DNA of 64,000 nucleotides from Mobula birostris. Its lineage: Eukaryota. Numbering within the stretch: position 1 is the stretch's first letter; each line of letters opens with the position of its first letter. The position numbers were made by a program. Location of the stretch: contig NC_092399.1 of assembly GCF_030028105.1 (NCBI RefSeq), positions 9,920,001-9,984,000 on the forward strand, given 5' to 3'. Below are positions 13,401 to 19,400 of this stretch, one piece after another.

Positions 13401-16400
13401 GAGGCAATGAAACATGGGGTTGTCTCCACAAGAGCTCGGTGGGGAAGGTCCAGACTGTGGCGTTCTTCTCCTACTGGAGAGCGAGGGGCCAGGTTGGGGG
13501 AGAAAGCCCCTCAATTATATCTGGAACAGTATACCACCCCAGAGTGGTAGCAGTGCCATGGATGTGCATTGACTATGAATGCAAATAATGAAAACGGTTT
13601 ATTCTTGTAAACATATTCCATTAATATATACAGTACTTATAAAAGTTTATATCGTTAAATGTGGGGAGCAACAGTCCGAGTGCAAGGTTTCGAGAGCAAT
13701 GCACACAAGTTCTGGAGGAACTCAGCAGGTCGGGCAGCACCTATGGAGAGGAATAAAGAGCCGACCATGGGGTTCACAGGACGCCTCTGTTAACGGTAGG
13801 GGTCCACGGCATAAAAATGGTTGGGAACCCCTATAGCTGACGGGCGTTTCAGACCGCCGCCCTTCATCAGGACAGTTTCGATCCGTGACGTTTGCAATTC
13901 CTTCCTTCCCTCCCACGCAGTTGCTGCTGAACCCGCTGAGCCCCCCCAGTAAAACAGATACAAGAGACTGCTGATACAAACACACACAACATCAGTGGAG
14001 GGAAATGGATGGTTGCTATTTCAACGGCTTGAACACGGTTTCAGGTTTCAGTTCTCTTGTATCTCGCCAGCGGATTACTCCCTACTGCTGCAACAAAGAA
14101 ATGTGCAGAATCAAATTTAATATCATCAGCATATGTCGTGACATTTGCTAACTTTACGGCAGCAGTACAATGCAATACATGATAAATATGGAGAAAAAAG
14201 ACTGAGTTACATTAAGTATACATATGTCTATTAAGTAGTAAGTTAAAGTAAGTAATGCAAAATAATAGAAATAATAAAAGTAGTGAGATAATGTTCATGG
14301 GTTCAATATCCGTTTAGGAATCGGATGGCAGAGGGGGAGAAGCTGTTTCTGAATCGCTGAGTGTGTACATTCAGGCTTCTGTACCTCCTTCCTGACGGTA
14401 ACAGCGTGAAGAGAGCATGTCCTGGGTGGTGAGGGTCGTTAATAATGGCCCCCACCTTCCTAAGGCACCGCTCCTTGAAGACGTCTTGGATACTACGGAG
14501 GCGAGTACCCACGACAGAGCCGACTAATTTTACAAGTTTCTGCAACTTTTTGGTGACTTTTGAAACAGTAATGTCATCATCCGGTATAGATAGAAAGATA
14601 CTTTATTAATCCCAAAGGAAATTACAGTATCACAGTGGCTTTACAGGTGCACAGATATACAAATATTAGAAGTAAGAAAGTATTAAAAAAAGTTGCCTCA
14701 AACAGTCGAACGGGGGGGGGGGGGTCATCACTTGCCCTGGCCGAGGGTTGGAATGGCCTCATACAGCGCTCTTTGGAGCAGCGCAGTTGTCTTTAGTCTA
14801 TTACAAAAAGCACTCCTCTGTTCAGCCAAGGTGGCATGCAGAGGGTGAGAATCATTGTCCAGAATTGTCAGGATTTTCCGTAGGGTCCTTTGTTCTGCCA
14901 CAGCCTCCAGTGTGTCCAGTTTGACTCCTATAACAGAACCAACCTTTCTAATTAGTTTGTTGGCATCACCCTTGCTGATGCCATTGCCCCAGCACATCGC
15001 TGCATAGAAGATTGTACTGGCGACAACAGACGAGTAGGACACGTGAAGGAGAGGCCTGCATACTTCAAAGGACCTCAGTCTCCTCAGGAAGTAGAGGTGA
15101 CTCTGGCCCTTCTTGTACACAGACTCTGTGTTGGTGGTCCACTCAGGTGCACCCCCAGGTCCTCACCACCGACAGTAACAGGGGCAGTGCTTCGTCTTCC
15201 TAAAGTCCATCATCATCTCCGTTGTCTCACTGATGTTCAGCTGCAGATGATTCAGCTTGCACCATTTGACAAAGTCCTGCACTAGGGCCTCATCCTCCCG
15301 CCCTCCCTGTATACATCCAACTATTGCTGAGTCATCAGAGAATTTCTGCAGATGACATGACTCAGTATGGGATCTAAAGTCCAAGGTATACAGGGCAAAC
15401 AGGAAGGGAGCCAATACAGTCCCCTGTGGGGTCCCAGTGCTGCTTATAACCATGTCTGACACACGGCTCTGAAGCCTTGAGTATGGGGGGGGGGGGTTGC
15501 AGCTACTGCAAGGATCGAAATAAGCTGCAGAGAACTGTAAACGTAGTCATCTCCATTCGTAGTACATTTTCAAGGAGCAATGCCTCAAAAGGGCGGCGTC
15601 CATCATTAAGGACCCTGATTGCCACCATCGGGAAGGAAGTACAGAACTAAAGGCACAGAGTCAACGATTCGGGAACAGCTTCTTCCCCTTTTGCCATCAA
15701 ATTTCTGAATGGACATTGAACCCATGAACACTACCTCACTACTTTTTTTTATTTCTAGTTTTGCACTACTCTTTAAACTAATATATATTGTATAATATGC
15801 AAAACACGAATTCTAGTAAATATATATGTACACTTCCTGTAATTCTTGTTTTTTTTATTATTAGAAAACATTGTGCTGCTATTGTAAAGACAATAAATTG
15901 CACGGCATACGCCGGTGAAATGAAACCTGATTCTTAATTGCTGACACAACAATTCAGGCAAAGAAAACAGTTCACATATTGCATTAAAGACACTCAGTTA
16001 AAACCTGTAGCGTTAACTTTATATATCCCTGCACGGATCACTGCGTCTGTATTTCACCTTTCCAGGATTTTCCCCATCGATTTAATTCTAAATTGTGGCA
16101 AAACCACATGGCTTGAGGCTGGGACAAGCTACTGTACATGCCTGGCGGCGGGTAGTCACGTGTGCTGCGAGGCGGCCTGGCGGCGGGTAGTCACGTGTGC
16201 TGCGAGGCGGCCTGGCGGCGGGTAGTCACGTGTGCTGCGAGGCGGCCTGGCGGCGGGTGGTCACGTGTGCTGCGAGGCGGTCTGGCGGCGGGTGGTCACG
16301 TGTGTTGCGAGGCGGTCTGGCGGCGGGTGGTCACGTGTGCTGCGAGGCGGTCTGGCGGCTGGTAGTCACGTGTGCTGCGAGGCGGTCTGACGGCGGGTAG

Positions 16401-19400
16401 TCACGTGTGCCGTGACGCAGCCGCGCTCTCGGACTCGGAGACGGACGCCAGGCCCGGGCGGAGGAGACAAGATGCCGAAGTATTACTGCGATTACTGTGA
16501 CACCTACCTCACTCACGACTCCCCGTCCGTCCGCAAGACGCACTGTGAGGGGCGCAAGCACAAGGAGAACGTCAAAGACTACTATCAGAAATGGATGGAG
16601 GAGCAGGCCCAGAGCCTCATCGACAAGACCACGGCCGCCTTCCGCCAGGGCAAAATCCCGCCCACGGCCCCCTTCCCGGCGCCGGCCGGGCCGCCCCCGG
16701 CTGGGGCCGCCATCCCACCTCCGCCTGGGAACATCGGAGTGCCGCCGCCGCGGCCCGCCATCCTGCCCGGACCCCCAATGGGAGGGCCGCCCATGATGCC
16801 GATGATGGGCCCGGCGCCTCCTGGTATGATGCTGGTGGGCCCGGGGATGAGACCGCCCATCAGCGGCCCGGTGCCCATGATGCCCGGCCCGATGATGGGG
16901 CCTCACCGGCCGATGGTGGTGCCTTCACGACCTGGATTAGTACGCTCGACCAGATAAGCAACGCCTGGACCAGGGACATTAGCCAGGGCGAAGTTTCACG
17001 CACCCTGAACCGAGACAATCGGACGGCAGCGCCGCCGTTTCAAAATCAGTTCTTTGACTCTTTTGTTACAGGGTCGAAGCAGGTCCTATGTATGTCGCCA
17101 TCTTCATTAAACAACCGAACTGTGAGCGGATTTCCAACTTGCAAGTTTGAATTAACGTGTACTGTCCAGTTCAGGGATTTACTGACGGACTGGAGGAAAG
17201 GGCTGGGTTGTGTGTTACTTTTTTAAGAAGCTGTACAATTGCTATTTCCCCCAGTGTATTTTTGAGATTCTAATTGTCCATTTATTCGGTGCCACATTAT
17301 TTTAGCCTGAAAATTTTAAAAAAATGTATGGTTGAAAATCCTTGTTCTGTTCAGGGTTTAAAACTTATACAGAGTTGAAGACCCCCAAATCCACAGGAAG
17401 TGATTTGACCCAACTATATAAGGCAATTAGTCAAAATATTGACGTTTTAAATTTGCCTTTTAAGCAGATGAATCAACTGACTGGAAAGCGTTGCTTGAAG
17501 TACACTGTTGTTGAAAGACACGAATTGGTTATACTTTGTTTTGAAATCTTGTAACATTGGATATAATTTTTTAGTTTGTAATAAACATTGTTTGGTTGAC
17601 CTAATTTTCTTTAACTGCTTGATATTTTGGCAGAAACTTGACTGGAACCATTAACCAATCGAAACAGCTTTGAATGAAGTGACAAGTGGGGATGGTAATC
17701 TCTGCTTTGGCAGTTGAACCCACAATCTTCCAGCACCGCATGATAAGTTGTTTAAAACAGTACCAATTCTCATCTGATTGTTTATGTATGAGATTCCCTC
17801 TTTATGAAGTGTATTTGAATTTCTAGCACTTGTATTTAACTGAAAGGGTAGTTTCTTCTGCTAAAAATGTGCAGAAAGTTCAACCATGCCATCAAAATTA
17901 AGGCATCTAGAGGAATGTTTCCAGCCAATATTTATTGTGGAACATTCTAATTAGTGTACCATGCTGTTTCCAATGAAATATGTTCATGCTTGACTCAATC
18001 ATAGCATCCACTTAAATCTACATCATCACAGTTCAAATCCAACTTCTGTTGAACGGTTGAATGAAATCTAGCCTGATAATGACATTGTGTTTGTTTGATG
18101 TAATGGAGATGGGAAGATTGTTATTCTTTGTCACTGACGTTCATATTTGAAGTTCGATAGAAAATCTTAACTTTAGTTAGATTTAAAATGGAAAAAAACA
18201 ACATTGCCATGAAACTCTTTGCTCTGCCATTCTTGCTGAAGCAATGTTGTATTTGAACAGGGGTTCCACCAAACTTTTATGCCACAGACCCCAAGTTGGG
18301 AAACCCTGTATTAGAAAAATATGGGCTCATTCCTTTGGAAACCAGGATTTGGTTGGCAAGAAACATGCATTTCCAGCAGCTGCAGACATTCTCTTGTTTG
18401 TGATTTGGTTGGCAAGAATTTGTTTTTGAGCTTTCACGAAGAGCGCAGTGGTTAGTGCAGCGTGATTACTGCTCGGGGCATTGACGTTCAATCCCGGCAA
18501 AGGAGTATGTGCTTCCTTCCCATGGATCATATGGGTTTTCTCTGGGGTGCTCCAGTCTCCTCCCACAGTCCAAAGATGTACCTATCAGTGGATTAATTGG
18601 TCATTGTAAACTGTCCTGTGATTAAGTTAGGGTTAAATTGGATGCCATTGGGAGTTGCTGAGTGACATGGCTTGAAGGGCCAGAAGGACCTATTCCGCAC
18701 TGTATCTAATTAAATAAGCAGCAGTACCTTATCAAGGCCACTTCTGAACCCTTTCTATAGTTAGTGAAATAGGATAACATTCTGAACAAAGATAAACTGT
18801 ACCATATTGAATTTACTTGTTAGCATTACATGCTTCACTTCATATTTAAGGCTTCTCATGAAATCTGTAGTCCTTTTCCCCCAATAATGAAATATATTAA
18901 TATTAAAAGTCAACTTTCCTAATGTATGTCACTAGATTGCATTTTCTTGTGGCTACTCCTGTGAGATAGTTAGCAAGGTACCAACATGGCTTGGGAAGAA
19001 TATTGTTCACTTTGTCTCTTGAGCACAATTCATTTCAACTGTTGGACCACCAGACCATGCAAAGAATGAATCAAAGCCTATCCCTGGTGTTTGCACTGTG
19101 ACTTGGTGCTCTTGACAGTTAAATGTATTCCCATTTAATCAGGTATTTGATGATTAACCAGTAGTTTTGGGTGTAGTGCTAGAGATGATGAACCAGAAGG
19201 CAAAGAGGTTGTTGAGTAGGTATATAAACATATGTAGAAAAAGGTACTGTAATTAAAAAAACATATTTTAATTTTGCTGTTCTTGATGCCTTGACTACTA
19301 GGATTGTAATAACAAAGGGGACACTAATAGGCAAAAGAAGATAAATATTTTTATGATGGCAAAAAACATCCCTTCTGACACTTTTTGCAAATAACGGAAT

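What the first reader, a model, noticed from the sequence alone, without database searches (positions are those of the whole stretch)
16141..17585. Intact intronless U1C (SNRPC) retrogene wired to an 8x E-box minisatellite promoter
Seen: a full-length 161-aa U1C ORF with no introns, all four Zn ligands, dense retained CpGs, a plausible polyA signal and no genomic poly-A tail. It begins about 60 bp after a 35-bp tandem array. Known: vertebrate SNRPC is multi-exon and in human lies on 6p21, not in the TMEM50A/RSRP1 block; U1C stabilises U1/5' splice-site pairing, and U1C level alters alternative splicing. Inference: this is an old, selected retrogene (second paralogue or relocated replacement) that put a core spliceosome subunit under bHLH-ZIP or clock control, in a locus that already holds two other splicing factors (RSRP1, SYF2).
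Basis: partly seen in the sequence, partly recalled or inferred. Interest (0 to 1): 0.8.

Follow-up and report, generated by a model that had tools for sequence, protein, structure and literature searches.

The report
Intronless U1C gene in a ray
A ray genome carries an intact, intron-free gene for the core splicing protein U1C inside its own CpG island, just after a 35-bp repeat with eight E-box motifs; it is most likely a working retrogene, a known kind of event in an unusual gene.

Summary
Window 16472-16957 (+) is one uninterrupted 161-aa U1C reading frame: Pfam zf-U1 6e-23, and full-length match to solved U1C at 1e-69. It lies 61 bp after a 35-bp x 7.7 tandem array (16140-16410) with eight CACGTG sites at exact 35-bp spacing. 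Array, leader, coding region and about 200 bp of 3' flank form the only strong CpG island in the 64 kb (o/e 0.96 against 0.36). There is no poly(A) tail and no target-site duplication.

The neighbours are a TMEM50-family gene (-), RSRP1 (+) and SYF2 (-). The best RSRP1 matches are rays. The protein is 95% identical to a shark U1C, and all 8 differences fall in the tail. A decayed "U1C-like" copy from an electric ray shows what relaxed constraint looks like.

My reading is an old, functional retrogene with its own CpG-island promoter. It is more likely the lineage's main U1C than an extra paralogue. The parent gene, orthologous loci, dN/dS and transcripts could not be checked here. The E-box array is real, but its regulatory role is untested, and clock control has no specific support. 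This is a new member of a known kind (orphan or functional retrogene). Interest is moderate.

The parts
16001..17150 (.). CpG island covering array, leader, whole coding region and about 200 bp of 3' flank
   Evidence: 1150 bp, GC 0.63, CpG o/e 0.96, 109 CpG; window o/e 0.36. o/e falls to 0.37 in 17201-17600.
16140..16410 (+). 35-bp tandem array, 7.7 units, eight CACGTG E-box cores all in the context TCACGTGT
   Evidence: TRF: period 35, 96% matches. Eight sites at 35-bp spacing. Unit absent elsewhere in the window. GC skew +0.34 on the + strand. Units listed.
16411..16471 (+). 61-nt leader between array and start codon; A at -3 of the ATG; holds a TGACGCA half-site next to the last E-box
   Evidence: Sequence. 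16411-16480 folds worse than all 200 shuffles (-16.3 against -24.4 kcal/mol, z +2.56). No AG with a pyrimidine tract of 0.7 or more between 16065 and 16471.
16472..16957 (+). U1C (SNRPC) coding region, 161 aa plus stop, no intron
16958..17585 (+). Candidate 3' UTR with two poly(A) signals: ATTAAA 17106-17111 at the edge of the CpG island, and AATAAA 17580-17585
   Evidence: No poly(A) tail and no convincing flanking direct repeat.
14228..15779 (.). Block of transposon fragments between the U1C island and the candidate TMEM50 promoter
   Evidence: Copies elsewhere in the window for 14228-14481, 14985-15132 and 15624-15779. Reverse-transcriptase match 15163-15546 (-) and LINE C-terminal domain match 14728-15162 (-).
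12751..13350 (-). Context: second, weaker CpG island, candidate promoter and non-coding exon 1 of the head-to-head TMEM50-family gene
   Evidence: GC 0.52, o/e 0.87, 35 CpG. Sequence shows two GCGCATGC palindromes, GTCACGTGAT, and a GTAAGT donor on the - strand at 13047-13042. The first coding exon at 7401-7490 (-) is preceded by an acceptor one base before its ATG. The exon 1 assignment is inferred.

Best explanation
This is a working single-exon U1C (SNRPC) gene of a ray.

Origin (inferred): a spliced U1C mRNA was reverse-transcribed and inserted head-to-head upstream of the TMEM50-family gene, in the TMEM50 / RSRP1 / SYF2 block. This happened long enough ago for the poly(A) tail and target-site duplications to vanish.

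Present state (shown):
- The frame is intact. The N-terminal zinc finger and helix are identical to shark and chimaera U1C.
- The whole short gene lies in its own germline-unmethylated-looking CpG island.

How it works (inferred):
- Transcription starts in or just after the last repeat units of the island.
- This gives a short, unstructured, uATG-free leader.
- The transcript ends at ATTAAA 17106 or AATAAA 17580.
- The protein then does the ordinary U1C job in U1 snRNP, stabilising the pairing of U1 with the 5' splice site.

It is more likely the main or only U1C of the lineage (an 'orphan' retrogene) than an extra paralogue.

The eight methylation-sensitive E-boxes probably add to promoter strength through ubiquitous CACGTG binders (USF, MYC/MAX or MiT/TFE class). 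I rate that part at about even odds. The array's 96% unit identity marks it as a young or homogenised addition, not part of the original insertion.
For: - Identity and integrity.
- One uninterrupted HSP and no second copy in the window.
- Multi-exon structure is the common animal state. In passages of PMC8458698, 48 of 110 U1C genes have seven exons and 18 of 110 have none.
- Neighbours. Pfam UPF0220 hit 2 of the 4 TMEM50 exon translations sent. SYF2 hit 1 of 2 ORFs sent. Six RSRP1 exons matched the Mobula protein.
- Constraint against shark P0001: 0 of 61 N-terminal and 8 of 100 tail differences (Fisher p 0.025).
- Constraint against Callorhinchus P0051: 0 of 59 N-terminal and 9 of 57 tail differences.
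- The Narcine 'U1C-like' copy has 8 of 61 and 10 of 50 differences, with no such contrast (p 0.44).
- For comparison, ray and shark RSRP1 are only 54-60% identical over residues 300-453. U1C is 95% identical between ray and shark.
- CpG island and undepleted synonymous CpG.
- Leader. No upstream ATG lies between 16141 and 16471 (sequence). The leader is unstructured. The array would fold at -188 kcal/mol if it were transcribed.
- Precedent. Orphan retrogenes replace parents and are under strong purifying selection (abstract of PMC3548309). Nine of ten mammalian ones have CpG-island promoters, and they include the spliceosomal RNF113A (section 13 of PMC4772013).
Against: - No transcript, methylation or binding data could be seen.
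- Retroposition is inferred only from intronlessness and location. The two classical hallmarks, tail and target-site duplication, were looked for and not found.
- The absence of a multi-exon parent was not tested. A parental copy could also hide inside another 90% cluster.
- Whether shark and chimaera U1C genes are intronless or syntenic is unknown.
- In one preprint, 95.7% of cartilaginous-fish retrocopies are species-specific (passage). That raises the prior for a young copy.
- High CpG could in part be inherited from a CpG-rich parent.
- The array has strong positive GC skew (+0.34). This also fits a position downstream of the start site, in the 5' UTR.
Confidence: 0.6

Rival explanations
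1. It is a functional second paralogue. A multi-exon parental SNRPC still exists elsewhere in this genome, and this copy adds a differently regulated dose, for example tissue- or condition-specific.
For: - Single-exon U1C copies beside a seven-exon gene are in print for mammals, for example two genes in Sarcophilus harrisii (passage of PMC8458698).
- Most retrogenes coexist with their parents (PMC4772013).
- The parent's absence was not tested here.
Against: - Among the 120 best of 1353 U1C hits, the cartilaginous-fish entries are one 90% cluster of 7 sequences, a Callorhinchus entry with the same E26 and R58, and one decayed Narcine copy.
- No second intact type appears, although at least 11 cartilaginous-fish species have proteins in the same database.
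- This evidence is indirect.
Confidence: 0.25
2. It is a non-functional processed pseudogene, young enough to keep the parent's open frame and CpG content. The array and island are coincidental.
For: - 95.7% of cartilaginous-fish retrocopies are species-specific, and only 15.7% retain an ORF (passages of the 2026 preprint). Dead copies are therefore the norm.
- No expression data were seen.
Against: - A young L1-type copy should keep a poly(A) tail and target-site duplications. Neither is present.
- CpG o/e stays near 1 in the non-coding array, the leader and the first 240 bp after the stop. It drops to background beyond. This is the pattern of a maintained unmethylated island.
- There are no changes in 61 N-terminal residues, against 8 of 61 in the Narcine decayed copy.
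Confidence: 0.08
3. The gene is functional, but the 35-bp array is a passenger: a CpG-island minisatellite or part of the 5' UTR with no E-box-dependent regulation. The promoter would rest on other island elements or on the nearby TMEM50 island.
For: - 96% unit identity shows recent expansion or homogenisation. The eight sites are therefore one site copied, not eight independently kept.
- GC skew of +0.34 fits a transcribed position.
- A TATA-like run at about 16022 lies upstream of the array.
- The ancestral distance to the TMEM50 candidate promoter was probably short. At least 14228-15779 of the 2.8 kb between them is transposon-derived.
Against: - As RNA the array would form a -188 kcal/mol structure ahead of the start codon, which is a poor leader for an abundant protein.
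- All 8 CACGTG cores and their immediate flanks are unchanged. The few unit differences lie elsewhere.
- The core's CpG is kept.
Confidence: 0.4

Closest known systems
Mammalian orphan retrogenes, e.g. RNF113A (PMC4772013 section 13, read in full; PMC3548309 abstract)
   Same: An intronless copy of an ancient housekeeping gene that takes over from a multi-exon parent. RNF113A is likewise spliceosomal (recalled). Strong purifying selection. Broad expression gained through a CpG-island promoter in nine of ten families.
   Different: Here the loss of the parent is not shown. The lineage is cartilaginous fish. The island carries a 35-bp E-box tandem array. No expression data.
Single-exon U1C copies in other animals (passages of PMC8458698)
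   Same: U1C genes without introns exist: 18 of 110 genes in 61 animal species. They sometimes sit beside a seven-exon gene in the same species.
   Different: That paper's main text names no shark, ray or chimaera (0 occurrences of 'shark' and 'Callorhinchus'). Its supplementary figure with the gene structures could not be seen. Those copies are not described as replacing the parent or as having a repeat promoter.
Narcine bancroftii 'U1 small nuclear ribonucleoprotein C-like' (P0089)
   Same: Derived from the same cartilaginous-fish type of U1C (E26; position 58 is C where the window has R).
   Different: 111 aa with an internal deletion. 8 of 61 N-terminal residues are changed, several at otherwise invariant positions. 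It is a decaying copy, whereas the window's gene is intact.
Multimerised E-box reporters and promoter minisatellites (recalled, no call)
   Same: Several identical CACGTG sites in tandem close to a start site.
   Different: This is a natural 35-bp unit, and its binding factor is unknown. The spacing does not match the close tandem E-box pair recalled for clock targets.

Membership tests
U1C / SNRPC (Pfam zf-U1) | N-terminal U1-type C2H2 zinc finger matching the whole family profile | tested here: met
   PF06220, residues 1-38 to profile 1-38 of 38, 80.8 bits against cut-off 22.
U1C / SNRPC (Pfam zf-U1) | Four zinc ligands (C6, C9, H24, H30; ligand identity recalled) | tested here: met
   All four are present and invariant in 10 of 10 aligned U1C sequences.
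U1C / SNRPC (Pfam zf-U1) | Full-length colinearity with solved U1C, including the helix to residue 61 and the Pro/Met-rich tail | tested here: met
   Query 1-160 aligns to chain 1-158 of 6qx9_1C, E 1.1e-69.
U1C / SNRPC (Pfam zf-U1) | Assembly into U1 snRNP and action at the 5' splice site | not testable with these tools
   Needs biochemistry. Inferred from sequence identity only.
Retrogene (processed gene copy) | Coding region uninterrupted where relatives have introns | tested here: met
   Single tblastn HSP 1-161. 48 of 110 animal U1C genes have seven exons (passage of PMC8458698).
Retrogene (processed gene copy) | Lies away from the ancestral locus | tested here: inconclusive
   The neighbours are TMEM50-family, RSRP1 and SYF2. 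That other vertebrates keep SNRPC elsewhere (human 6p21) is recalled and was not tested.
Retrogene (processed gene copy) | Poly(A) tail remnant after the 3' end | tested here: not met
   No A-run follows either poly(A) signal.
Retrogene (processed gene copy) | Target-site duplications | tested here: not met
   Only weak AT-rich matches were found: 19 of 25 and 13 of 15. The flank alignment is not convincing.
Retrogene (processed gene copy) | Identified parental gene | not testable with these tools
   No eukaryotic genome collection was available. Only the 64-kb window could be searched.
Orphan retrogene (replacement of the parent) | No functional multi-exon parent in the same genome | not testable with these tools
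   Indirect only: one type of cartilaginous-fish U1C among the 120 listed hits. Cluster members could not be listed.
Orphan retrogene (replacement of the parent) | Purifying selection | tested here: inconclusive
   Protein level only: 0 of 61 against 8 of 100 differences to shark U1C, p 0.025, with a contrasting decayed copy. No nucleotide orthologues, so no dN/dS.
Orphan retrogene (replacement of the parent) | Own promoter giving broad expression | tested here: inconclusive
   A CpG island is present. Expression could not be tested.
E-box (bHLH-ZIP) or clock-controlled promoter | CACGTG cores near the start site | tested here: met
   Eight cores lie 65-315 bp upstream of the ATG. The start site itself is unknown.
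E-box (bHLH-ZIP) or clock-controlled promoter | Close tandem E-box pair (6-7 bp spacing, recalled) typical of CLOCK:BMAL1 targets | tested here: not met
   Spacing is exactly 35 bp start to start.
E-box (bHLH-ZIP) or clock-controlled promoter | Factor binding, and E-box-dependent or rhythmic transcription | not testable with these tools
   Needs ChIP or CUT&RUN, reporters and time-series RNA.
Processed pseudogene | Frameshifts, stops or loss of invariant residues | tested here: not met
   The frame is open, and all invariant and nearly invariant columns of the alignment are kept.

The most novel reading that the evidence does not exclude
In rays and sharks, and perhaps all cartilaginous fishes, the only U1C gene is an orphan retrogene. 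A core factor for 5' splice-site recognition would then be made from an mRNA that itself never needs splicing. That would cut it loose from splicing-based feedback within U1 snRNP. Its dose would instead be set by a copy-number-variable, methylation-sensitive array of E-boxes (MYC/MAX, USF, MiT/TFE or clock factors). Array length could then tune global alternative splicing between individuals or species.
Probability: 0.12. Interest if true: 0.65.

Novelty: new member of a known kind. Interest (0 to 1): 0.4.

Why it matters
U1C dose changes alternative splicing and is cross-regulated with U1-70K through splicing (title and start of abstract of PMC3798272, seen in the listing). A lineage in which U1C comes from an intronless gene with a new promoter would be a natural experiment. 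It would show what happens when a core spliceosome subunit is uncoupled from its ancestral regulation. It would also add a deep-branching vertebrate case to the short list of orphan retrogenes. If a multi-exon parent still exists, this is simply one more expressed retrocopy of a housekeeping gene. My searches found no paper that pairs SNRPC with retrogene, intronless or shark in this sense. Supplementary tables of retrocopy surveys could not be seen and may list it.

Tried and rejected
The 7 members of the shark cluster, their species and accessions stayed unseen.
I looked for a Chiloscyllium plagiosum RSRP1 on the same 51,668,882-bp contig as its U1C. Only a C. punctatum cluster (84,521,793 bp) appeared, so the test was uninformative.
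- Target-site duplications. Eighteen direct-repeat families were found in 15700-18000. Only two weak collinear AT-rich matches flank the gene, and their alignment is unconvincing. Rejected.
- Splice acceptor upstream of the ATG, which would allow a 5' exon from the TMEM50 island. The only AG with a tract that is at least 70% pyrimidine is at 16064, before the array. None lies between the array and the ATG. Rejected as unlikely.
- RSRP1 hosting U1C in its first intron. The first coding exon of the matched RSRP1 isoform is at 39051-39131, 21 kb downstream. Not supported.
- Rfam at gathering thresholds over the whole window: 0 matches.
- The exon at about 33948-34106 (-) reminded me of MGST3 (recalled). 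Pfam gave no MAPEG hit, and the Atlas gave no named lead above 0.83. Left unnamed.
- Pfam did not recognise the two RSRP1 ORFs sent (0 of 2). Homology searches did.
- The collection genome contigs holds only bacteria and archaea, so it was not used.
- Exons of TMEM50 and RSRP1 were searched one by one.

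
Full report
**What is there.**

Window 16472-16957 (+) is an ATG-to-stop frame of 161 aa. It matches Pfam zf-U1 over the whole profile (E 6.1e-23). It aligns end to end with solved U1C (6qx9_1C, query 1-160 to chain 1-158, E 1.1e-69). In a 10-sequence alignment every invariant column is kept, including C6, C9, H24 and H30. That these four bind zinc is recalled. tblastn with a shark U1C gives one uninterrupted HSP over residues 1-161 and no other U1C fragment in the 64 kb.

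Upstream, Tandem Repeats Finder reports a 35-bp array at 16140-16410: 7.7 copies, 96% matches, no indels. It holds eight CACGTG cores at exact 35-bp spacing, starting at 16157 and ending with the one at 16402. These are 8 of the 19 in the window, where shuffles expect 4.82 +/- 2.07 and 0 of 100 shuffles reach 19. All eight are in the context TCACGTGT. The few differences between units lie elsewhere. The unit occurs nowhere else in the window: 7 of 7 matches at up to 3 mismatches are inside the array. The array ends 61 bp before the ATG.

**The CpG island.**

The only strong CpG island in the window is 16001-17150 (GC 0.63, o/e 0.96, 109 CpG). The window as a whole has o/e 0.36. The island covers four parts:

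| Part | CpG o/e |
|---|---|
| Array | 1.17 |
| Leader | 1.22 |
| Coding region | 0.84 |
| First ~240 bp after the stop | 1.0 |
| 17201-17600 (beyond the island) | 0.37 |

Synonymous CpG is not depleted. CCG makes up 19 of 38 proline codons, and NCG makes up 25 of 60 P/A/T/S(UCN) codons. GC3 is 0.81, against 0.23-0.55 in four neighbouring exons. My inference is that the whole short gene has long lain in a germline-unmethylated state, as active CpG-island genes do. A multi-exon parent would normally have CpG-poor downstream exons. This argues against simple inheritance of the CpGs, but it is an argument, not a test.

**Ends of the unit.**

- Between 16141 and 16471 there is no ATG. The -3 position of the start codon is A.
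- No AG with a pyrimidine tract lies between the array and the ATG. A spliced-in 5' exon is therefore unlikely.
- The stretch 16411-16480 folds worse than all 200 shuffles (z +2.56). The array plus leader would fold at -188 kcal/mol.
- I infer a start site in or just after the last units. The array's GC skew of +0.34 and a TATA-like run near 16022 leave a start upstream of the array possible.
- Poly(A) signals are ATTAAA at 17106, at the island's edge, and AATAAA at 17580.
- There is no A-tail and no convincing target-site duplication.

**Surroundings.** Exons were searched one by one.

- **TMEM50-family gene (-).** Pfam UPF0220 hit 2 of the 4 exon translations sent: 5643-5756 and 2106-2252. 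The other exons were recognised by eye.
- **TMEM50 first coding exon.** The exon at 7401-7490 has a splice acceptor one base before its ATG. A non-coding exon 1 must therefore lie further upstream.
- **Candidate TMEM50 promoter.** A weaker island at 12751-13350 (o/e 0.87) has two GCGCATGC palindromes, GTCACGTGAT, and a GTAAGT donor on the - strand. I take it as the candidate TMEM50 promoter (inferred).
- **Gap between the two islands.** At least 14228-15779 is transposon-derived. The two islands were probably much closer when the copy arrived, head to head. Retrocopies are known to borrow promoters in this arrangement (PMC4772013, passages).
- **RSRP1 (+).** Six exons from 39051 to 48182 were mapped with the Mobula hypostoma protein at 86.5-96.4% identity.
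- **SYF2 (-).** Last exon at 60470-60733: Pfam SYF2 hit 1 of the 2 ORFs sent.

RSRP1 identity to the window falls from Mobula (90%) to Narcine (70%) and Amblyraja (64%). The window is therefore from a ray nearest to Mobula among those seen. It is not human and has no N.

**Is it under constraint, and is it the main gene?**

The closest database protein is 'U1 small nuclear ribonucleoprotein C [Chiloscyllium plagiosum]': 161 aa, 95% identical, representing a 90% cluster of 7 sequences. Differences from the window protein are as follows:

| Compared with | N-terminal residues changed | Tail residues changed | Fisher p |
|---|---|---|---|
| Shark U1C (P0001) | 0 of 61 | 8 of 100 | 0.025 |
| Callorhinchus (P0051) | 0 of 59 | 9 of 57 | 0.0012 |
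| Narcine 'U1C-like' (P0089, 111 aa) | 8 of 61 | 10 of 50 | 0.44 |

- The Callorhinchus entry shares the lineage-specific E26 and R58.
- The Narcine copy shows what decay looks like.
- Ray and shark RSRP1 are only 54-60% identical over residues 300-453.
- Among the 120 listed of 1353 hits, I saw no second intact type of cartilaginous-fish U1C. The same database holds RSRP1 from at least 11 such species.
- This leans towards one U1C per species. It is indirect: cluster members could not be listed, and a parental copy could sit inside another 90% cluster.

**Mechanism.**

- Shown: an intact U1C frame, intronless, in a CpG island, behind an E-box array, in the TMEM50 / RSRP1 / SYF2 block.
- Inferred: origin by retroposition, old age, a start site near the array's 3' end, and normal U1C function.
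- Even odds: the E-boxes raise promoter activity through ubiquitous CACGTG binders.

The T flank on one side of each core is recalled to suit USF, MiT/TFE and CLOCK:BMAL1 half-sites and to disfavour MYC. That is not tested here. The 35-bp spacing does not match the close tandem pair recalled for clock targets. Clock control therefore has no specific support. The 96% identity of units means the eight sites are one site recently copied. The 'wiring' is probably much younger than the gene.

**Comparison with the known.**

- Orphan retrogenes that replaced their parents are described. They are under strong purifying selection (abstract of PMC3548309).
- Ten mammalian families were studied. Nine have CpG-island promoters, and one is RNF113A (section 13 of PMC4772013).
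- Intronless U1C copies are reported in animals: 18 of 110 genes. The main text of that paper does not mention sharks (passages of PMC8458698).
- Cartilaginous fishes carry many retrocopies. They are mostly species-specific, and few have open frames (passages of the 2026 preprint).
- Searches pairing SNRPC with retrogene, with intronless and with shark returned nothing relevant. The same holds for retrocopy, processed pseudogene and single-exon. Supplements were closed.

**Verdict.**

The retrogene reading is well founded. Replacement is favoured over an extra paralogue but is unproven.
- E-box or clock control is speculation.
- The clustering of splicing factors is best read as old synteny plus one insertion.
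- This is a new member of a known kind. Interest is 0.4.

Noticed in passing
window 12751-13350: A second, weaker CpG island. It has two GCGCATGC palindromes, a GTCACGTGAT E-box and a consensus GTAAGT donor on the - strand at 13047-13042. It is a likely promoter and non-coding exon 1 of the TMEM50-family gene, whose first coding exon (7401-7490, -) starts one base after an acceptor. Like the last array unit, it pairs GTCACGTG with a TGACGCA half-site.
   Followed up: partly
window 33948-34106 (-), CpG-rich 33951-34400: An ATG-started hydrophobic exon on the minus strand, next to a modest CpG island, between U1C and RSRP1. It reminded me of MGST3 (recalled). Pfam and the Atlas gave no support.
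   Followed up: partly
window 23443-26015 (+): A LINE with an apurinic-type endonuclease domain (E 3.6e-12) and a reverse-transcriptase domain (E 2.7e-16), split over several frames. This is a possible kind of source for the machinery that makes retrocopies.
   Followed up: partly
window 36954-38038 (+) and 38127-38409: An ORF with a weak GIY-YIG nuclease match (E 5e-4, below cut-off), as in Penelope-like elements (recalled). It is followed by a dinucleotide-type microsatellite that reads as Gly-Arg or Pro-Leu runs.
   Followed up: partly
window 56996-57394 (+): A fragment with an integrase core domain match (rve, E 2.6e-7, just below cut-off): a remnant of an LTR or DNA element.
   Followed up: no
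window 14228-15779: A nest of transposon fragments directly upstream of the U1C island. It includes a reverse-transcriptase piece at 15163-15546 (-) and inverted copies of one short element at 14243-14399 and 15624-15776.
   Followed up: partly
protein P0051 (Callorhinchus milii): This 126-aa U1C model lacks residues 59-103 of the window protein and has a 10-residue N-terminal extension. It could be a cryptic splice inside an otherwise continuous frame, or a modelling artefact. It cannot be told apart without the genome.
   Followed up: no
window 51679-51691: Two CACGTG cores 7 bp apart. This is the close tandem spacing that the U1C array lacks. They lie in a CpG-moderate stretch of unknown nature.
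   Followed up: no
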